From Escherichia virus TH47: DNA of 64,000 bases. Both the position numbers and the translations under genes were made by a program. How positions within the stretch are numbered: the stretch's first letter is position 1; every line of letters begins with the position of its first letter. The notes under the pieces were generated by a model, which was given only the letters and a program-made list of their open reading frames with translations, was not told the origin of the DNA and searched no databases. Below, in pieces: positions 12,149 through 19,987 of this stretch. The stretch lies in sequence record MT446416.1. One strand, written 5' to 3'.

Positions 12149-12236
12149 TATTTCAACTCTCCATGTTTTAAATCCAATAGGTACATTCCTTGTACCATCA
12201 ATGTTATTATAGCACCAAAAACGTCTTTGTCCCACG

Positions 12237-12244
12237 TATAAATA
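12237..12244 (+). promoter_or_regulatory. Candidate T4-type late promoter (TATAAATA)
   Basis: Exact TATAAATA 36 nt upstream of ATG 12280, first gene of the plus-strand baseplate block. Confidence 0.45.
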
Positions 12245-12279
12245 CATCAAATGTTCCCTTCTTATGGAGAATCAAAAAG

Positions 12280-13011
12280 ATGATTGATCGTAGAATCCGA
12301 TTAAGACCTAAAACCGCAGGTGCTAACTATGTGTATGGTGATTTTGGCAACAGTTCAGAACCAACATTGCTATCGTTTCTGCGTCCAACAAATGGTTTGG
12401 TTTGGACTGTAACCCCAACTGTAACTGAACAAAGGTCTGTTCAATATGAAACACAGTCCCCTATACATACTAACAGTAACTATAACAACTACAAGAATAC
12501 AACAAACACTGTTTTCACTATCCAAGGTGAGTTTTATGCGAACACTGCTGCTGAAGCAATGTATGCATTGGCTTGTGTTCATTTTATTCGTTCCGTGTCC
12601 TTAATGGACTTTGGTCGTCAAGCAGCATCTGCTAATAATCCCGAACTAGCAATTGCAGGTGCACCACCACCAATTTTACTATTAAGTGGGTATGGTCGTT
12701 ATACATATAATGATATTCCTGTTATTTTGAAAGCATATAATTTTACATATCCAAATGATGTGTCTTACATTCAGGTTCCATTGGATAGTAGTGATAGTAC
12801 TTTTAATTTATCTGATATGGATAGTCGTAAATTCTTCGAACAGCTTAGAAGTACTGGATATATGAATCCACAAGATGAGGTATGGGTTCCACAGAAAATA
12901 TCGGTAACGCTTCAACTTGAAGAACAACCAACATCTGATTACATGACTAAAAAGTTCAACCTAAATGCATTTAAGCGTGGTGAACTATTACGTAATGGAG
13001 GATTTATCTAA
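12280..13011 (+). CDS. Baseplate/tail structural protein (hypothetical)
   Basis: ORF-track start 12190 is TTG; first ATG 12280 with GGAGA RBS; first gene of baseplate operon; no firm family assignment. Confidence 0.4.
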   Translation: MIDRRIRLRPKTAGANYVYGDFGNSSEPTLLSFLRPTNGLVWTVTPTVTEQRSVQYETQSPIHTNSNYNNYKNTTNTVFTIQGEFYANTAAEAMYALACVHFIRSVSLMDFGRQAASANNPELAIAGAPPPILLLSGYGRYTYNDIPVILKAYNFTYPNDVSYIQVPLDSSDSTFNLSDMDSRKFFEQLRSTGYMNPQDEVWVPQKISVTLQLEEQPTSDYMTKKFNLNAFKRGELLRNGGFI

Positions 13012-13336: not shown

Positions 13337-15592
13337 ATGGCAGATTTACAAAGTTCTGTTGATAATTTTAAAAATGATATTTCAAACATCACAAGTTCTG
13401 CAAAGGCAGCAAAAGAAACTGCAACAAGTACTATTGAAAGCTTAAAAGCCACTGCTAATACTTTGCAAAATGATCTTGAAAAAGTAAAAAACAATTTTAA
13501 AGCTAAGGTTAGTAACGTACAGTCTTTACCAAAGCAAAGTGCAAGCGTTGACCAAGTGTATGAAGACTTGGATCTAAGTGAGTTTGTTATTCCTTATGAC
13601 AATAAATTGTTAAAGTATGACAATCCAACTTGGCACTTTTCCCTTTTCGCATTAGACAAGGATGATTTCAAAAACTTCTGGCTTTACCCAGATGCTGAAG
13701 TTCAACGTCATGTCATCTCTGAAAGTGGTGTAACTGGAAAGTATAATATCACAAGTGTTCAGATGACGCAAGCTGGTCCTTCAACTCCAGGGATGACAAC
13801 CAACTATTGCTTCAACACAGCAGTACTGAACCTTTCAGAAAACAATAGTATGAGTTTATATGATGAACTAATTTCTTTAAGTAATAAACTAAGGTATCAT
13901 AAGTTCATGGACTTACCTTTAATATTAGAATTGAAATTTATTGGATTCAATACTAATGGTGTACCTGAAACTATACCAGAAACAACTCGTAAATGGTCCG
14001 TGAAGATTAACAGTGTTACCGCTAGTGCATCACAAAGTGGTAGTACTATGATGTATTCTATGAGTCTTGTTCATAACCGTACTGCTCTAGTGGATAACGT
14101 TGAATGGACTCTTAAAGAACCATTTAACTGCACAGCAGAAAACTTTGGTGATTTTTGTTTTGATTTGGAAGATAAATTGAATCAAATGGCAGACCAACAA
14201 TATGGTTATTTGCGTTATAAATTTGGTGAGTTAGCAGAAGGGAAGTTCTTTGAATTTAAAGTTGCACCAGATTTACAGGATTTGTTTATAAACTATGATT
14301 CTAAACAGATGGCAGAAGCTGGAGCTACAAAAAGTGGTGCACAGGGTTCTAAAAACTTTTCATGGAATCCAAGTACTCCAATTTCTCGAATTATCGATGA
14401 CGTAATAGATACCTGTACTGTACAGGCTGATGATAGTACTAGTGTTCGTCAATTTGTTAATATAATCCCACTTAAACAGTATGTTGGATTTGATAATTAC
14501 CGAAACACGTCAGTTTATAAAGTTGTTTTCTATATAGTTCGTTTTAAAATTGGTGATATTGTTCATGAATCCGATTTACAGCCAGAAAACTTTACATTTG
14601 AGTATTTCTTTGAAAATGCCGAGAAATATGTAGACCCAAATGACCAAAAACCAAAGATTAACATGAAAACTTACAATTATCAGTTTAGTGGACTCAATAG
14701 TGAGATTCTAGACCTTGATTTGAAGTTTGACCAGCAATTCTTTGTGGCTACAACTCGTAACCCTGGGCCAATACAGGATGTTGCTAACCACGCTGGTACT
14801 CATACCTCCCAAGAATTGAATATACAAGGGGTTCAGTACAACAGTATACCAGATGCATGGGCAAAAACAAGTGATTTACGCGTTACACGTGATCTTGGTG
14901 GTATGTTAACACAGGCTCAGGAACAACTACTCAATCAAGTTGAAACTTTAGCAAAAGAACAAATGCAAGTTGGTAATGCTGAAGAACAGGATCGTTATAA
15001 TAACTATCAAGTAAACGTTCTACCACAGTATATTGAAGATTATCTAACCACATATGAAGAAAATGACGGTGGAACCGATGGAATTGGTCATCGATATGGT
15101 GAAGTATTCACAATGCCAACTGAAGCAACCAATAATGAAACAACATTATCTGCATCATTGAACGATAACAGTAGTACATATGAAATGGACCGCCGTAAAA
15201 TTCGTGACAACTATTACAATCGTCCATTCTTGTGTAAATTGGATATGCGTGTAGTTGGTGACCCATATTGGTTAGGTTGGAGTGATTATCCATATATCCA
15301 ATATCTTGAACAGGTAATTAATGGAGAAGATATGGAAATTAATCCAGAAGATTACCATGTAGCAAACTACATTACATCTGAAGCATATCTTTTATTGAAA
15401 TTACAACCTGTAGTTTCTATAAATGATAACACTGGTGTTCTTGATATTAATACCCCAACTACATTTAACCAAACTGTTTATCGTGTAAACAAAATTGTTC
15501 ATGATTTTGGTGCAGGTGGTTCATTTACACAACAAATTCAGGCTGCAATTGTAATTCGTGCACTCAAACGTCACGATAGTATAATTGAATAA
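13337..15592 (+). CDS. Large baseplate hub-associated structural protein (gp27-like position)
   Basis: 751 aa; GGAG RBS; directly upstream of gp5-like spike gene; N-terminal coiled-coil low-complexity region. Confidence 0.4.
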   Translation: MADLQSSVDNFKNDISNITSSAKAAKETATSTIESLKATANTLQNDLEKVKNNFKAKVSNVQSLPKQSASVDQVYEDLDLSEFVIPYDNKLLKYDNPTWHFSLFALDKDDFKNFWLYPDAEVQRHVISESGVTGKYNITSVQMTQAGPSTPGMTTNYCFNTAVLNLSENNSMSLYDELISLSNKLRYHKFMDLPLILELKFIGFNTNGVPETIPETTRKWSVKINSVTASASQSGSTMMYSMSLVHNRTALVDNVEWTLKEPFNCTAENFGDFCFDLEDKLNQMADQQYGYLRYKFGELAEGKFFEFKVAPDLQDLFINYDSKQMAEAGATKSGAQGSKNFSWNPSTPISRIIDDVIDTCTVQADDSTSVRQFVNIIPLKQYVGFDNYRNTSVYKVVFYIVRFKIGDIVHESDLQPENFTFEYFFENAEKYVDPNDQKPKINMKTYNYQFSGLNSEILDLDLKFDQQFFVATTRNPGPIQDVANHAGTHTSQELNIQGVQYNSIPDAWAKTSDLRVTRDLGGMLTQAQEQLLNQVETLAKEQMQVGNAEEQDRYNNYQVNVLPQYIEDYLTTYEENDGGTDGIGHRYGEVFTMPTEATNNETTLSASLNDNSSTYEMDRRKIRDNYYNRPFLCKLDMRVVGDPYWLGWSDYPYIQYLEQVINGEDMEINPEDYHVANYITSEAYLLLKLQPVVSINDNTGVLDINTPTTFNQTVYRVNKIVHDFGAGGSFTQQIQAAIVIRALKRHDSIIE

Positions 15593-15605: not shown

Positions 15606-18272
15606 ATGGCAGATACAAGTAAGAAATATGCCCAACAACAGTTGGGTCGTTTTGACCCTTCGTATCCACAACTAGCAACCGTGATGGATAACCGTGACCC
15701 AACTAAATCCGGTAAGCTAAAAGTGTGGATTCAAGGTTCACAAAGTGATAAAAATTCAAAAGAGTCATGGATTGAAGCATCATACATGTCTCCATTCGCT
15801 GGTAAAACTCCAGGGATACCAAGTGCTGATGCTTATGGTCAATATCCAAAGGGATATGGTTTTTGGGCGGTTCCACCTGATGTCGGATGTACTGTTGTTG
15901 TTATATTTGCACAAGCAAGAACATTCCAAGCGTATTGGATTGGTTGTGTTTATGACCAACGTATGAATACGATGGTTCCTGGAATGGCTACTGAAATAAG
16001 CAACTATGCTGGTACTGATATGCCATTACCCGTAACTGATTATGACCGTAATACAATTTCTACCAGTACACAAGACAAATATGCAAACGTTCCAATTATT
16101 GCAGGTCTGAAAAAACAAAACTTACTTTATGATGAGGAAGCGGGTGTTGCTAACCGTAGCAGTACTCGCCAAACTACCAGTACGGTTTATGGTCTTTCAT
16201 CACCTCGTGGTAACAGTTTTATTATTGATGATGGTTACACAGAAGAAGAATTAACAGCACCTACATGGGATCAAGATCCAGATGGTTATCAGGATACACA
16301 ATTCAATAACCCAGTAAACGATACTCGCGTTGGTTCTCGTAAAAATGAAGGCGTTGTAATTAAAACACGTAGTGGTGCACAGTTGTTGTTATCTGAAGCC
16401 TCTGGTGATGTTCTTTTAATTAACCGTGATGGTACTGCACGTATTAAATTCACTGGTGAAGGTGACATTGAAATGCACTGTGATAAGAATATTAACATTC
16501 GTGCAGGACAAGATATTAACATGGTTGCTGGTCGCTCATATAATATTGAAAGTGGAGCAGACTTCAATGCTCGTGTTGGTGCAAACACTAAACTAGATTT
16601 GGTTGGTGCATTGGATGCTAAAGTTGGTGGTCAGGTTGTTATTAACGCTGGGGCAGATTTACGTTTAGTAACAGCAGCTTCATTACGTATGCAAAGTGGT
16701 AGCAGTACTGATATAACTGCTGGTTCTAATGCGTCAATCTCTGCTGCTACCAGTGCTAATCTTATTGGTTCTTCATCAGCTATTATTAGTGGTGGTGGTC
16801 AAACTCTTACTGTTAACAGTGGTGGTAATAGTGGTACTGCTGAATTTAATGCACCAAACTTCCGCACCCCATCTGCTGGCTTGAATGAACATATACATGA
16901 TATATCGGCTTGGGTTGATGCAGAGAATCACGGCAGTACTGTTGAACCTCCACGTCAAGGTGGTGGTAGTGGGAATAGTGAATCCCCAGTTCAACCTGAA
17001 CCTGCTAATGATGTAGCTCCAACTTTAGCTCCAGTACAGGACACTGAAGCAATTCAATATGTAAATTATACAACAGAAACAGAACAAGTTCAAACACAAG
17101 ATTTAATGACTTCTGATCCTGGCATGGCTGGTTATAGCATTACGTATGAAGGTCTTCATATGTTCATGCCGTGTAGTGGAACCATTCGCCAATACGGTTA
17201 TTGGGGGAAAGGTGTCCCGACTAGTGGTGGTGGTAAAGCTGATAGAAGTGGCTGGGAAATACAGTGCAAGGGTGATGTTGTAGCTCCAGATGGTGGTGTA
17301 GTTGTTATCACGAATGGTGCTTTATTGGTTCAACATAAGTCTGGATATAAATCTGTATTTTATAATATTCAATCAGATTTGCTCAATAAAGACGTTGTTC
17401 AAAAAGGACAAGTACTGGGGAAAGCTAATGGTGTTATTCAATTTGAAATAAGAGTTACCTCTGCCAACGTACTGGGATTTAGTGGTTCAGTTGACCCTGG
17501 ATTATTCTATGCATCGCAGACTGGTACAGGTTCTGAAGCGGGAAATAAAACATTAATTGCAGGACAAGCAACGAACCAAGCAGCACCGAAAGCTGTTGTT
17601 CAACCTTCTGTTGATAGTGATGAATTAGTTGTCTCCACTAAAATTAAAACCATCGGTACTGGATATTCACAACGTGGTTCTAGGCATGTCCCTCGTCGTA
17701 GAAGAACACAACGTTCAGGTGGTAGTACCGCAGCACCAACTGCACAAGAATCATACAATGTTGGTAATGTTGACAAGACGGCAATTGACTGGAAAGTTGT
17801 TCCTGGTGATTCACAATTTATTTCCGAATTGAAAGAATATGAAGGGACAATGGCGTATCAACAAGCTAAAGGATATTACCGAAATGGTAAATTCTGGAGA
17901 TATTTAGACAGTCGTGGGTTCCCAACCATTGGTTACGGACACTTGATTGTTGGTGGAGAAAACTTCTCTGGTGGTATTACCGAACAGGAAGCCAATGATA
18001 TGTTAGTTCGTGATAGTAGTAAAGCTATATATGATGCCAAATCAATCTACGCTTCTTATAAGATGAAAACACCTTACATGGCACAACAAGTCCTATGTCA
18101 AATGGTCTTCCAGATGGGTAAAGGTGGAGTAATGAAATTCAAGTCAATGCTATCTGAAATGGCGAAAGGAAACTATAAGCAAGCTGCTGCTCAAATCCGA
18201 AATTCTGCTTGGTATCGCCAAACAACTCGTCGTGCTGAATTAATGGCACGAAGATTAGAGGCATGTCAATAA
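15606..18272 (+). CDS. Baseplate central spike protein, gp5-like, with C-terminal T4-lysozyme-type (GH24) domain
   Basis: 888 aa; middle Gly/Ser/Ala-rich beta-repeat region; C-terminal EYEGTMAYQ...TIGYGH...MVFQMGKGG matches T4 lysozyme catalytic region (E, D, T positions present). Confidence 0.8.
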   Translation: MADTSKKYAQQQLGRFDPSYPQLATVMDNRDPTKSGKLKVWIQGSQSDKNSKESWIEASYMSPFAGKTPGIPSADAYGQYPKGYGFWAVPPDVGCTVVVIFAQARTFQAYWIGCVYDQRMNTMVPGMATEISNYAGTDMPLPVTDYDRNTISTSTQDKYANVPIIAGLKKQNLLYDEEAGVANRSSTRQTTSTVYGLSSPRGNSFIIDDGYTEEELTAPTWDQDPDGYQDTQFNNPVNDTRVGSRKNEGVVIKTRSGAQLLLSEASGDVLLINRDGTARIKFTGEGDIEMHCDKNINIRAGQDINMVAGRSYNIESGADFNARVGANTKLDLVGALDAKVGGQVVINAGADLRLVTAASLRMQSGSSTDITAGSNASISAATSANLIGSSSAIISGGGQTLTVNSGGNSGTAEFNAPNFRTPSAGLNEHIHDISAWVDAENHGSTVEPPRQGGGSGNSESPVQPEPANDVAPTLAPVQDTEAIQYVNYTTETEQVQTQDLMTSDPGMAGYSITYEGLHMFMPCSGTIRQYGYWGKGVPTSGGGKADRSGWEIQCKGDVVAPDGGVVVITNGALLVQHKSGYKSVFYNIQSDLLNKDVVQKGQVLGKANGVIQFEIRVTSANVLGFSGSVDPGLFYASQTGTGSEAGNKTLIAGQATNQAAPKAVVQPSVDSDELVVSTKIKTIGTGYSQRGSRHVPRRRRTQRSGGSTAAPTAQESYNVGNVDKTAIDWKVVPGDSQFISELKEYEGTMAYQQAKGYYRNGKFWRYLDSRGFPTIGYGHLIVGGENFSGGITEQEANDMLVRDSSKAIYDAKSIYASYKMKTPYMAQQVLCQMVFQMGKGGVMKFKSMLSEMAKGNYKQAAAQIRNSAWYRQTTRRAELMARRLEACQ

Positions 18273-18284
18273 ATATTTCAGTAC

Positions 18285-18292
18285 TATAAATA
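18285..18292 (+). promoter_or_regulatory. Candidate T4-type late promoter (TATAAATA) for lysozyme gene
   Basis: Exact TATAAATA 18 nt upstream of ATG 18310; second AATAAATA at 18268..18275. Confidence 0.4.
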
Positions 18293-18309
18293 ATAATGAG
18301 GAAATCTTT

Positions 18310-18798
18310 ATGAGTAAATGGGAAATCAAAAATACCGACGAACAATTTTTTAAAGAAATTAAAGAATTTGAAGGTACTATTGCGTATCAGAAAAAACTTG
18401 GTTATTTTAAAAATGATAAGTTTTGGGTATATAAAGACAGTCTAGGTCTTGATACCATTGGTTACGGTCACCTTGTACTTAAGGGTGAAAGTTTCAAAAA
18501 TGGACTCACTGAAGCAGAAGCTGATGCTCTCCTTATAAAAGATGCTCAGACCGCTTACAATGACGCAAAATCAATCTATGATCAATTTGGAATGACTGCT
18601 CCAGTACAGGTTCAGCGTGTATTGTGGTTTATGGTGTTCCAAATGGGTAAATCAAAAGTTTTAAATTTCAAAAAAGCGATGGCTGCTCTTGGTCGTGGTG
18701 ATTATAAAACTGCTGGTAAAGAAATGCGTGATAGTACGTGGTACAAACAAACCACATCCAGAGCGGAGAAGATGGCTCGAATCGTCGAATCCGTATAA
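18310..18798 (+). CDS. e: T4-type lysozyme (endolysin, GH24)
   Basis: 162 aa; EFEGTIAYQ...DTIGYGH...MVFQMGKS match T4 lysozyme hallmark motifs (TIGIGH, MVFQMG) with catalytic Glu/Asp/Thr positions conserved. Confidence 0.9.
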   Translation: MSKWEIKNTDEQFFKEIKEFEGTIAYQKKLGYFKNDKFWVYKDSLGLDTIGYGHLVLKGESFKNGLTEAEADALLIKDAQTAYNDAKSIYDQFGMTAPVQVQRVLWFMVFQMGKSKVLNFKKAMAALGRGDYKTAGKEMRDSTWYKQTTSRAEKMARIVESV

Positions 18799-18813: not shown

Positions 18814-19209
18814 ATGGCAATTGTTTTTAAAGGTTTTTCAACTCCAGTAGTTGGAAGAACTGAAACATTGTATGACAGTGAATTGGTTCGTCAGGATTTA
18901 ATGAATCATTTCAATACAAAAAAAGGTGAACGTGCATTTGATGCTGATTATGGGTTCATTGCGTGGGATTTGCTATTTGAATTGGATGGTTATAATACAA
19001 TCAACCTTTTGGAAGCAGATGCCCGTAGAATTATTAGCTTGGACCCACGTTTAAGCTTAAAGAAACTTCAAATATCAAGAATTGAGTACGGTTATCAGAT
19101 GGATATAGTACTTGAATATGTTGTTCTCAATACTCTTGAAGAATTAACTATAGTTTTTGATGCAAGAAGTAACAACAGAATGGCTACCTATTCTGTATCA
19201 TCTTTGTAA
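18814..19209 (+). CDS. Baseplate wedge protein gp25-like (GPW/gp25 family)
   Basis: 131 aa; KGERAFDADYGFIAWDLLFE aligns with T4 gp25 KGSRPFDPEFGCDLSDQLFE; size matches. Confidence 0.8.
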   Translation: MAIVFKGFSTPVVGRTETLYDSELVRQDLMNHFNTKKGERAFDADYGFIAWDLLFELDGYNTINLLEADARRIISLDPRLSLKKLQISRIEYGYQMDIVLEYVVLNTLEELTIVFDARSNNRMATYSVSSL

Positions 19210-19216
19210 ATTATAA

Positions 19217-19246
19217 AAGCACTCTTCGGGGTGCTTTTCTTTTTGG
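19217..19246 (+). terminator. Rho-independent terminator (likely partial, within operon)
   Basis: GC hairpin (AGCAC-tcttcgg-GGTGCT) followed by TTTTCTTTTT. Confidence 0.45.
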
Positions 19247-19279: not shown

Positions 19280-19987
19280 ATGAAAAGTTATTATGGTTTC
19301 ATTTATCAATGGGAAGATAGCACCAATGGTATAAAATACATAGGTTCTCATTATGGAGCAACAGATGACAATTATGTGTCATCTAATGTTATAGTTAATA
19401 GAATTTATAAGGGAAGACCACAGGATTTATCAAGAACAGTTTTAGAATATATTATAGTTGATGATAAGAAATTTTTATTGGAGAGAGAACAAAAATACTT
19501 AGATTTGATATTACCCTCTGAATTGTACACGAGTTTAAACAGAAAAAATAAAACCGTGAAATATTACAACATGAAAAGGAATGCATGTGGTGGTAACGGT
19601 GGTGTAGGAAGTAATGGTATGTTGAAAAATAAAATAAAATATTTTAACAAACATACATTTGAACAAAAATTCTTTAGTAGTACTGACATTATACCAGATG
19701 ATTGGGTTAAAGGTGTACCATCCTCAAAGGTTAGCTGTACTGGAAGCACTTGGTATCTGAATATCAAAACTGGGGAAAATAAAAGATTTAAGAATAATCC
19801 AGGTATTGAATGGATTGAAGGTAAACGTAATATTTCAACAACACCAAAAAAAGTAAACACTCCGTATGGAATTTTTGAAAGTGCATCTGAATGTGGTAGA
19901 CAGACTGGGATAAAACAAGCAACTGTAACGTTTAGGTGTCGTTCAAAATCATCTAATATGGCAAATTGGTTTTATATAGAGGAATAA
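19280..19987 (+). CDS. GIY-YIG homing endonuclease (Seg-like)
   Basis: N-terminal YGFIYQWEDSTNGIKYIGS is a canonical GIY-X10-YIG motif with downstream conserved Arg and Glu; low GC; inserted between conserved baseplate genes. Confidence 0.8.
   Translation: MKSYYGFIYQWEDSTNGIKYIGSHYGATDDNYVSSNVIVNRIYKGRPQDLSRTVLEYIIVDDKKFLLEREQKYLDLILPSELYTSLNRKNKTVKYYNMKRNACGGNGGVGSNGMLKNKIKYFNKHTFEQKFFSSTDIIPDDWVKGVPSSKVSCTGSTWYLNIKTGENKRFKNNPGIEWIEGKRNISTTPKKVNTPYGIFESASECGRQTGIKQATVTFRCRSKSSNMANWFYIEE

What the first reader, a model, noticed from the sequence alone, without database searches (positions are those of the whole stretch)
15606..18798. Adjacent paralogous lysozyme domains: gp5-like spike with C-terminal lysozyme plus free endolysin
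The central spike protein ends in a T4-lysozyme-type domain that is clearly paralogous to the stand-alone lysozyme encoded immediately downstream (shared TIGYGH and MVFQMGK motifs). This suggests local duplication or domain shuffling between the lysis and injection machineries. The lysozyme lies at the extreme C-terminus after a Gly/Ser-rich beta-repeat region, unlike T4 gp5 where lysozyme precedes the C-terminal beta-helix, implying different spike architecture or processing.
Basis: partly seen in the sequence, partly recalled or inferred. Interest (0 to 1): 0.45.

Follow-up and report, generated by a model that had tools for sequence, protein, structure and literature searches.

The report
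Jumbo-phage tail spike lysozyme and its free paralog
A giant E. coli phage carries a cell-wall-cutting lysozyme on the far end of its tail spike protein and encodes a related free lysozyme in the next gene; the pair is real and ancient, but it was already described for this phage group in 2013 and 2017.

Summary
ORF 15606-18272 (888 aa) is a central spike protein and ORF 18310-18798 (162 aa) is a free GH24 lysozyme. Spike residues 729-887 match the free protein at 50% identity without gaps (E=1e-56).

The window is a 121Q/PBECO4/RaK2-type jumbo coliphage, about 97% identical to Ecwhy_1, BF17 and fEgEco12. The gene pair is conserved across that group.

It is not new. The RaK2 paper (2013) and the CBB paper (2017) already describe the C-terminal lysozyme, the central M23-like domain, the adjacent free lysozyme and a third paralog (TM-LysM-lysozyme) predicted to be the endolysin. 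The free enzyme's ortholog LysUE1 was cloned in 2025 and lyses cells in vitro.

What I add:
- The two copies are each other's nearest relatives among 1.84 billion representative proteins.
- The split is old: about 56% nucleotide identity and no within-genome sister pairs in the tree.
- The M23 domain lacks all zinc and catalytic residues family-wide, so it is a degenerate LytM domain.
- An invariant HxH motif follows the beta-helix, so the LytM and lysozyme domains hang beyond the spike on flexible linkers, like an evolved T6SS VgrG.

Calling the free copy "the endolysin" is unproven.

The parts
15606..18272 (+). Central spike / tail lysozyme gene (888 aa), ortholog of RaK2 gp078, CBB_240, phAPEC6 gp241 and 121Q gp587
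   Evidence: ORF. [quoted passage not shown] About 97% nt identity to annotated Asteriusvirus-type phages. Orthologs were detected in virions by MS (phAPEC6 gp241; CBB_240).
15672..15953 (+). OB-fold domain (residues 23-116) of gp5/gpV/VgrG type
   Evidence: PF04717, 29.8 bits against a cut-off of 23.8. Present in 22/22 aligned homologs. Matches a T6SS VgrG chain in the PDB, E=1e-5.
16338..16865 (+). Beta-helix (about residues 245-420): the 'Gly/Ser-rich beta-repeat region' of the finding
16878..16913 (+). Invariant HxH motif (GLNEHIHDISAW; H429, H431) directly after the beta-helix; putative spike apex or metal site
   Evidence: H429 and H431 are invariant in 22 full-length homologs and present in 66 of 87 rows when distant N-terminal homologs are included. 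Distant members read HxHPxG. The only PDB hit is weak: the C-terminus of a 207-aa 'puncture apparatus' protein, 9ndy_G, E=1.5. The apex role is inferred.
16923..17120 (+). Linker region (about residues 440-505): a Pro/Gly/Ser-rich stretch, then a short predicted strand (478-486) and helix (490-500), then a disordered stretch
   Evidence: Low or variable conservation. Block-mean pLDDT 57-68 for 440-470 and about 78-81 for 470-500; residues 503-509 below 50.
17133..17525 (+). Degenerate LytM / M23-fold domain (about residues 510-640) without zinc ligands or catalytic histidines
17613..17789 (+). Conserved strand motif (ELVVSTKIKTIGTGYSQRGS..P) followed by a disordered basic linker (RRRRTQRSGGS...); candidate hinge or processing site
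   Evidence: V675, I683, G691 and P696 are invariant. Predicted strand at 675-682; residues 702-716 have pLDDT below 50. Cleavage is not shown.
17790..18272 (+). C-terminal GH24 (T4-type) lysozyme domain, residues 729-888, with catalytic E746, D768 and T774
18285..18292 (+). TATAAATA, a T4-late-promoter-like box 18 nt upstream of the free lysozyme ATG
   Evidence: Only two copies in the window, both just upstream of baseplate gene starts. Conserved at the same place in phAPEC6 and fEgEco12, and found upstream of baseplate genes in distant contigs. Promoter function is inferred.
18298..18304 (+). Ribosome-binding site GAGGAAA, 5 nt before the ATG at 18310
   Evidence: Read directly from the sequence.
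18310..18798 (+). Free 162-aa GH24 lysozyme (catalytic E21, D43, T49); ortholog of RaK2 gp073, CBB_239, phAPEC6 gp242 and LysUE1
   Evidence: ORF. PF00959, 37.5 bits. 50% identical to spike 729-887. The LysUE1 primers encode MSKWEIK... and ...RIVESV, and that enzyme was lytic with EDTA. The ortholog is absent from the virion MS lists of phAPEC6 and CBB.
18814..19209 (+). gp25-like baseplate wedge gene (context: the free lysozyme is embedded in the baseplate operon)
   Evidence: PF04965, 34.7 bits. The same order, spike then [lysozyme] then gp25 then a large wedge protein, holds in distant contigs.
13337..15592 (+). Upstream 751-aa virion structural protein (context; possibly the hub partner of the spike)
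   Evidence: PHROG 11190 'virion structural protein', 1210 bits. Conserved immediately upstream of the spike gene in all contigs examined. The hub role is inferred, not tested.

Best explanation
This is the conserved baseplate gene pair of RaK2/121Q-type (Asteriusvirus-like) jumbo myoviruses.

Gene 1 encodes the central spike. It has an OB fold, then a VgrG-like beta-helix, then an invariant HxH motif. Two flexible linkers follow, carrying a catalytically dead LytM (M23-fold) domain and finally an intact T4-type GH24 muramidase. By analogy with gp5 and VgrG the spike is presumably a trimer.

When the tail contracts, the spike crosses the outer membrane. The tethered muramidase then opens the peptidoglycan locally so the tube can reach the inner membrane. 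The dead LytM domain most likely binds peptidoglycan or holds and regulates the lysozyme. This arrangement resembles an 'evolved' T6SS VgrG with a C-terminal effector more than it resembles T4 gp5, where the lysozyme is inserted before the helix.

Gene 2, 37 bp downstream, has its own late-promoter-like box and a strong RBS. It encodes a soluble, signal-less 162-aa paralog of that muramidase. It is enzymatically active in vitro (ortholog LysUE1) and has not been found in virions. It is therefore most likely a late, non-structural muramidase that contributes to lysis, alongside the TM-LysM-GH24 paralog encoded elsewhere in these genomes.

The two copies stem from one ancient duplication or fusion event at this locus, before the group radiated.

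Shown: the domain identities, the retained or lost catalytic residues, the paralogy, the age of the split and the synteny. Inferred: the delivery mechanism, the LytM role, the lysis role of the free copy and the direction of the duplication.
For: - ORFs and pairwise identity.
- Phage group and conserved pair. 85 full-length spike clusters down to 36% identity.
- Catalytic residues: GH24 E/D/T kept; M23 His/Asp ligands absent family-wide.
- Paralogy: quartets 90% spike+free, bootstrap 196/200. Exhaustive search: the free-lysozyme cluster is the top non-spike hit, and the LytM+GH24 module occurs only in these spikes.
- Age: about 56% nt identity; the pair is present in distant lineages; the NJ tree has separate spike and free clades.
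- Late-promoter-like TATAAATA conserved upstream.
- Literature: spike ortholog in virions, free ortholog not detected; LysUE1 activity; the nearest non-jumbo relatives are prophage endolysins in lysis-cassette position.
Against: - No holin or spanin lies near the free lysozyme. A different paralog with a signal-anchor is the published endolysin candidate, so a lysis role for the free copy is not demonstrated.
- Non-detection of a small, possibly low-copy protein by MS is weak evidence.
- NJ bootstrap support for the spike clade (23%), the free clade (about 20-23%) and their sister grouping (21-28%) is low on 160 columns.
- Some lineages (P0079, P0080, P0085) have the spike lysozyme but no free copy at this locus, so the free copy is dispensable there.
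- The apex reading of the HxH motif rests on a motif and one non-significant PDB hit (E=1.5).
- Trimer geometry and the position of the C-terminal domains in the virion were not modelled.
Confidence: 0.72

Rival explanations
1. The free 162-aa lysozyme is a low-copy baseplate or assembly component, a second tail lysozyme or a partner of the spike, and not a lysis enzyme. The real endolysin is only the TM-LysM-GH24 paralog.
For: The gene sits between the spike and gp25 genes in the baseplate operon. This position is conserved even in lineages with spikes only 38-43% identical. There are no lysis genes nearby. The signal-anchored LysM paralog is the published endolysin candidate. [quoted passage not shown]
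Against: It was not detected in virion proteomes of phAPEC6 or CBB although the spike was. Its closest relatives outside jumbo phages are prophage endolysins. It is missing from the locus in several related lineages whose baseplate module is otherwise the same. The 'tail lysozyme' annotations are homology transfers from the spike family (PHROG 13211).
Confidence: 0.22
2. The pair arose from a recent local tandem duplication, or is kept similar by ongoing gene conversion between spike and lysis genes.
For: The genes are directly adjacent, and the homology begins exactly at the domain boundary (W729 aligns with W4). Within-genome identity varies from 35% to 65% between lineages.
Against: The two coding segments are only about 56% identical at the nucleotide level. 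No genome's spike and free copies are sisters in the tree. The pair is present in deeply diverged lineages. The pairing of proteins to genomes relied on matching contig lengths.
Confidence: 0.04
3. The two lysozymes were acquired independently from a common pool of enterobacterial phage GH24 endolysins, and their adjacency is coincidental.
For: The free lysozyme is as similar to 150-aa prophage lysozymes of Serratia, Yersinia and Erwinia (mean 47%) as to spike domains (mean 47%). Deep nodes in the NJ tree have weak bootstrap support.
Against: The quartet and four-point tests favour spike+free (90%; 196/200). The exhaustive search ranks the free family first for the spike domain by a 50-bit margin. 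Spike and free copies share an N-terminal W-x-[IV]...D extension and a C-terminal RAE.MAR..E motif that the prophage enzymes lack. The adjacency is conserved.
Confidence: 0.08
4. The spike is proteolytically processed at the conserved motif or basic linker (about residues 684-716). The lysozyme would be released or held non-covalently, as with T4 gp5* and gp5C. This rival is not exclusive of the best explanation.
For: An invariant motif (I683, G691, P696) is followed by a disordered Arg-rich stretch. T4 gp5 is a precedent for cleavage (my knowledge of Kanamaru et al. 2002).
Against: There is no direct evidence. The phAPEC6 table lists gp241 with its full predicted mass and only 10% coverage, and RaK2 gp078 was not detected at all. 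The motif has no similarity to known cleavage sites that I could test.
Confidence: 0.25

Closest known systems
Orthologous pairs in RaK2-like jumbo phages: RaK2 gp078/gp073, CBB_240/CBB_239, phAPEC6 gp241/gp242, 121Q 587/586, UE-S1 LysUE1
   Same: Same genes, same order and same domain architecture, at 83-97% nt identity for the E. coli phages. The C-terminal lysozyme, the central M23-like domain, the adjacent free T4-type lysozyme and the third lysozyme are all described in PMC3622015 and PMC5259590. LysUE1 was shown to be lytic in PMC12805682.
   Different: Nothing substantive. Those papers did not note the degeneracy of the M23 domain, the HxH motif or the phylogenetic relation of the copies.
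Phage T4 gp5 (tail lysozyme) and gene e lysozyme
   Same: A central spike with an OB fold, a GH24 lysozyme and a beta-helix, plus a paralogous soluble lysozyme in the same genome (about 43% identity in T4, from my knowledge of Kanamaru et al. 2002). PDB sequence hits to gp5 and T4L at E about 1e-11 to 1e-9.
   Different: In T4 the lysozyme is inserted between the OB fold and the helix; here it is the last domain after the helix, the HxH motif, the LytM domain and the linkers. T4 has no LytM domain. T4 genes 5 and e are unlinked (my knowledge); here the genes are adjacent.
Evolved T6SS VgrG spikes with C-terminal peptidoglycan-targeting effectors (e.g. V. cholerae VgrG3 lysozyme/pesticin-like domain, P. 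aeruginosa VgrG2b)
   Same: An OB fold and beta-helix followed by a C-terminal enzymatic cargo that acts in the target periplasm. The N-terminal part aligns to VgrG structures. The concept is documented in PMC9927483 and PMC6899460.
   Different: VgrG carries a fused gp27-like module and belongs to a secretion system. Here the cargo is LytM + GH24 and the protein is a phage virion component.
Phage phi29 gp13 tail-tip enzyme (lysozyme-like + M23 endopeptidase joined by a linker)
   Different: In gp13 the M23 domain is an active endopeptidase (my knowledge of Xiang et al. 2008) and the domain order is reversed. gp13 has no spike OB fold or helix. Here the M23 motifs are lost.
Degenerate LytM factors EnvC, NlpD, DipM and SpoIIQ
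   Same: M23 fold without catalytic metal ligands. They are the best structural and profile matches.
   Different: Those are bacterial regulators or scaffolds (amidase activators, sporulation channel). A role in a phage spike is unknown.
P2 gpV / phi92 gp138-type spikes with an HxH iron-binding apex
   Same: An OB fold, a beta-helix and then a conserved HxH motif. Distant family members read HxHPxG.
   Different: gpV and gp138 end at the apex (my knowledge of Browning et al. 2012); this protein continues for about 450 more residues. No significant sequence match to solved apex domains was found.

Membership tests
GH24 / T4-type phage lysozyme (both proteins) | Pfam PF00959 above the gathering threshold | tested here: met
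   41.7 bits (spike 766-883) and 37.5 bits (free 40-147) against a cut-off of 22.3.
GH24 / T4-type phage lysozyme (both proteins) | Catalytic Glu, Asp and Thr equivalent to T4L E11, D20 and T26 | tested here: met
   Spike E746, D768 and T774 align with free E21, D43 and T49. They are conserved in 66, 65 and 49 (T/S) of 69 spike homologs.
GH24 / T4-type phage lysozyme (both proteins) | T4-lysozyme fold | tested here: met
GH24 / T4-type phage lysozyme (both proteins) | Muramidase activity | not testable with these tools
   The ortholog LysUE1 was lytic on EDTA-treated cells (PMC12805682). The spike domain has not been assayed.
gp5 / gpV / VgrG central spike | N-terminal OB-fold (PF04717) followed by a beta-helix | tested here: met
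gp5 / gpV / VgrG central spike | Component of the virion baseplate, encoded in the baseplate module | tested here: met
   The gene is flanked by gp48-, gp53-, gp25- and gp6-like genes. Orthologs were found in virions by MS (literature).
gp5 / gpV / VgrG central spike | Homotrimer with an intertwined helix | not testable with these tools
   Only a monomer model could be made.
T4 gp5 architecture specifically | Lysozyme inserted between the OB fold and the C-terminal beta-helix | tested here: not met
   The order here is OB (23-116), helix (about 245-420), HxH (429-431), LytM (510-640), lysozyme (729-888).
Active M23 (LytM/lysostaphin) metallopeptidase | M23 fold | tested here: met
Active M23 (LytM/lysostaphin) metallopeptidase | Zn ligands HxxxD and HxH plus catalytic histidines | tested here: not met
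   The corresponding columns are R/E, N, V and Q in this protein, and non-His/Asp in nearly all of 69 homologs. It is a degenerate LytM domain, not a peptidase.
gpV/gp138-type iron-loaded apex | Conserved HxH after the helix that coordinates a metal at the tip | tested here: inconclusive
   The HxH motif is invariant. There is no significant match to solved apex domains (E=1.5). Metal binding is not testable here.
Canonical endolysin of a lysis cassette (free 162-aa protein) | Encoded next to holin or spanin genes | tested here: not met
   Its neighbours are the spike and gp25 genes. No holin is annotated in the equivalent about 60 kb of fEgEco12.
Canonical endolysin of a lysis cassette (free 162-aa protein) | Soluble muralytic enzyme that is not part of the virion | not testable with these tools
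   The sequence has no signal peptide or TM segment. The ortholog is absent from published virion proteomes.

The most novel reading that the evidence does not exclude
The conserved but catalytically dead LytM domain on the spike may work like EnvC, NlpD or DipM. It would recruit or activate host periplasmic amidases, or gate the tethered GH24, at the entry site. The adjacent free paralog would then be a soluble partner of this entry machinery rather than a lysis enzyme. That would be a phage spike that hijacks the host's own cell-wall hydrolase control.
Probability: 0.08. Interest if true: 0.6.

Novelty: already known. Interest (0 to 1): 0.2.

Why it matters
The pair shows how contractile injection machines reuse one muramidase module in two contexts, tethered to the spike and free in the cell. 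It also shows that phage spikes can carry C-terminal cargo the way evolved T6SS VgrGs do. Related spikes appear to swap that cargo: one distant homolog has a weak, sub-threshold GH19-like hit where GH24 sits here. These enzymes are also being explored as antibacterials (LysUE1). The core facts were already published for RaK2, CBB and their relatives, so the finding mainly confirms known biology. The only modestly new points are the family-wide inactivation of the M23 domain, the HxH motif before the cargo, and the nearest-relative status and age of the two lysozyme copies.

Tried and rejected
- I looked for a third GH24 copy in the window by tblastn and found none. The third paralog lies elsewhere in related genomes (phAPEC6 gp293c).
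- NCBIfam gave only a far sub-threshold gene-transfer-agent endolysin hit.
- The NJ tree with 200 bootstraps had the expected topology but weak support, so I added quartet and four-point tests and the exhaustive representative search.
- Within-genome identity of the two copies paired proteins by equal contig length. That is a heuristic, and it showed no sign of recent conversion.
- A profile of the HxH region against the PDB returned one non-significant hit, so the apex claim stays an inference.
- The sigma-70 promoter and terminator scan was at chance level. TATAAATA is not enriched overall (2 found, 6.8 expected) but is well positioned and conserved.
- Long proteins with C-terminal GH24 from the representative search showed no Pfam spike domains, so I did not count them as further examples of this architecture.
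- Distant N-terminal homologs have diverse C-termini, and most lack a consistently placed post-helix HxH.
- I did not use the second structure-prediction job or two of the three fold-search jobs. They were not needed for the verdict.
Full report
**Observation**

The window holds two adjacent + strand ORFs at the reported coordinates: 15606-18272 (888 aa) and 18310-18798 (162 aa). BLASTP aligns spike residues 729-887 with residues 4-162 of the small protein. There are 80/159 identities (50%), no gaps, and E=1e-56. The cited motifs TIGYGH and MVFQMGK occur in both.

Pfam assigns three domains to the large protein: an OB domain (PF04717, residues 23-116), a VgrG-type beta-helix (DUF2345) and Phage_lysozyme (766-883). 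It assigns Phage_lysozyme to the small protein.

**Where it comes from**

The 3.2-kb region is 96.8-97.6% identical to nine jumbo coliphages, including Ecwhy_1, BF17, fEgEco12 and CMSTMSU. It is about 83% identical to 121Q, PBECO4, phAPEC6 and others. The spike matches PHROG 13211 end to end.

The genes lie in a baseplate module: a gp48-like gene, a gp53-like gene, a 751-aa virion protein, the spike, the free lysozyme, a gp25-like gene and a large wedge protein. About 85 protein clusters share the full-length spike architecture down to 36% identity. They include GAP32, Erwinia and Yersinia jumbo phages and Xanthomonas phage XaC1.

**Anatomy of the spike**

- OB fold, residues 23-116.
- A highly conserved segment, about 120-245.
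- An invariant HxH motif (H429, H431, in LNxHxH).
- A linker region, about 440-505: a Pro/Gly/Ser-rich stretch (block pLDDT 57-68 up to 470), a short predicted strand and helix (478-500) and a disordered stretch at 503-509.
- An M23/LytM-fold domain, about 510-640, pLDDT about 90.
- A conserved strand motif at 675-696.
- A disordered Arg-rich linker at 702-716.

The metal and catalytic positions are gone throughout the family. The HxxxD pair reads R...E here (family R 52/69, I 37/69). The catalytic His column is N/D/G. The HxH columns hold no histidine. It is therefore a degenerate LytM domain, not a peptidase.

*The lysozyme.* The catalytic Glu, Asp and Thr are retained in 66, 65 and 49 (T/S) of 69 homologs. 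This argues for an active enzyme.

*The HxH motif.* It resembles the apex motif of P2 gpV and phi92 gp138 spikes (my knowledge). The only PDB match was non-significant: the C-terminus of a 207-aa 'puncture apparatus' protein, E=1.5. I treat the apex reading as an inference.

**Relation between the two lysozymes**

The two coding segments share only about 56% nucleotide identity. A neighbour-joining tree of 70 GH24 domains puts all spike domains in one clade. All free lysozymes from genomes that also carry a spike fall in a sister clade. The 150-aa lysozymes from Serratia, Yersinia and Erwinia chromosomes lie outside, and the LysM-linked paralog and T4 e lie further out. Bootstrap support is weak.

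Two further tests are clearer:

- 90% of spike/free/prophage quartets, and 196 of 200 bootstrap replicates of a group-mean four-point test, join spike with free.
- An exhaustive phmmer search of 1.84 billion representatives was run with spike residues 505-888. After the spikes themselves, the free-lysozyme cluster ranks first (186 bits, 55% identity). The next hit scores 133 bits.

The same search finds the LytM+GH24 combination only in spikes of about 870-985 aa.

Mean identities are spike-free 47%, free-prophage 47% and spike-prophage 40%. The free copy has therefore stayed closer to ordinary endolysins. One of those relatives (Y. enterocolitica) sits after the tail-tip genes of a siphovirus-like prophage, a typical endolysin position.

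**Age and distribution**

The free gene lies between the spike and gp25 genes even in lineages whose spikes are only 38-43% identical. It is missing at that spot in three other lineages that keep the spike lysozyme. A more distant 766-aa spike homolog has a sub-threshold GH19-like C-terminus and no free lysozyme.

I found no lineage with the free copy but without the spike domain. This mildly favours origin of the free gene by partial tandem duplication of the spike's 3' end. The direction is not resolved.

No genome shows its two copies as sister sequences. Within-genome identity ranges from 35% to 65% (pairing there is heuristic).

**What the free lysozyme does**

It has no signal peptide or TM segment and a strong RBS. 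A TATAAATA box lies 18 nt upstream of its ATG. That box occurs only twice in the window, both times before baseplate gene starts, and it is conserved in relatives.

Its ortholog LysUE1 was cloned and lysed EDTA-treated cells (PMC12805682). Virion proteomics found the spike ortholog but not the free one in phAPEC6 and CBB (PMC7247149; PMC5259590).

These genomes also encode a third paralog with an N-terminal membrane anchor and a LysM domain (phAPEC6 gp293c). The CBB authors predict it to be a signal-anchored endolysin. No holin is annotated near the free gene.

A soluble late muramidase that contributes to lysis is the most likely role. It is not demonstrated, and a low-copy structural role remains possible.

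**Comparison with what is known**

The RaK2 paper (2013) already reported three lysozymes. It described an 886-aa baseplate lysozyme with 'very unusual domain composition' and a C-terminal lysozyme. The CBB paper (2017) described the gp25-like gene, the free T4-type lysozyme and the gp5-OB/M23/C-terminal-lysozyme protein side by side. It noted the difference from T4 gp5.

The finding is therefore already known. Functionally, the closest analogues are:

- T4 gp5 plus gene e: a paralogous spike-borne and free lysozyme.
- Evolved T6SS VgrGs with C-terminal peptidoglycan-targeting effectors.
- phi29 gp13: a muramidase and an M23 domain on a tail tip.

**Verdict**

The 'recent duplication' and 'endolysin' parts of the interpretation are not supported as stated. 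The feature is a conserved, previously described trait of RaK2-like jumbo phages.

The incremental points are the dead LytM domain, the HxH motif preceding the cargo, the nearest-relative status of the two copies and the patchy presence of the free gene. These are of modest specialist interest.

Noticed in passing
window 19280-19987 (+): A 235-aa homing-endonuclease ORF lies between the gp25-like gene and the large wedge gene (PHROG 314 E=1.9e-14; weak I-TevI DNA-binding hit). It is absent from that position in fEgEco12 and phAPEC6, where the two genes are about 100 bp apart. A terminator-like hairpin sits just before it at 19215-19238.
   Followed up: partly
window 12237-12244 and 18285-18292 (+): TATAAATA, the T4 late-promoter consensus, occurs only twice in 64 kb (6.8 expected by chance). 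Both copies lie about 18-30 nt upstream of baseplate gene starts. The box is conserved at the same sites in fEgEco12 and phAPEC6 and lies upstream of baseplate genes in distant metagenomic relatives. It is probably the late promoter of this phage group, which encodes its own sigma-like factor.
   Followed up: partly
window 12190-13011 (+): The listed TTG start is probably wrong. PHROG 12050 matches only residues 29-273, and an ATG (MIDRR...) at 12281 follows the TATAAATA box and a GGAG. The gp48-like gene most likely starts there.
   Followed up: no
protein P0176 (JGI metagenome, 236 aa): This is a chimeric sequence: the first ~43 residues are gp25-like and the rest is the spike's C-terminal linker plus lysozyme. 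It is either a misassembly or a natural recombinant that deleted the free lysozyme and joined neighbouring genes.
   Followed up: no
L009 5001-7301 (protein P0097, 766 aa; carried on contigs up to 330 kb): A distant spike homolog has a C-terminal GH19 (chitinase/lysozyme-like) hit (PF00182, E=6e-5, below the cut-off) instead of LytM+GH24. There is no free lysozyme before its gp25 gene. This suggests the muralytic cargo at the spike's C-terminus is exchangeable.
   Followed up: partly
L003 11101-12027 (-) (phAPEC6 gp293c; not in the window): The third GH24 paralog of these phages has an N-terminal hydrophobic anchor and a LysM-like segment. It shares the same insertion between the catalytic Glu and Asp. 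It is flanked by a ribosome-hibernation-factor-like gene rather than by obvious lysis genes.
   Followed up: partly
L010/L011 6001-6453 (Yersinia enterocolitica chromosome): 150-aa GH24 lysozymes about 50% identical to the free jumbo-phage lysozyme are widespread in Serratia, Yersinia, Erwinia and Raoultella chromosomes. The Yersinia gene sits after the tail-tip genes of a siphovirus-like prophage, next to a GIY-YIG (SegE-like) gene.
   Followed up: partly
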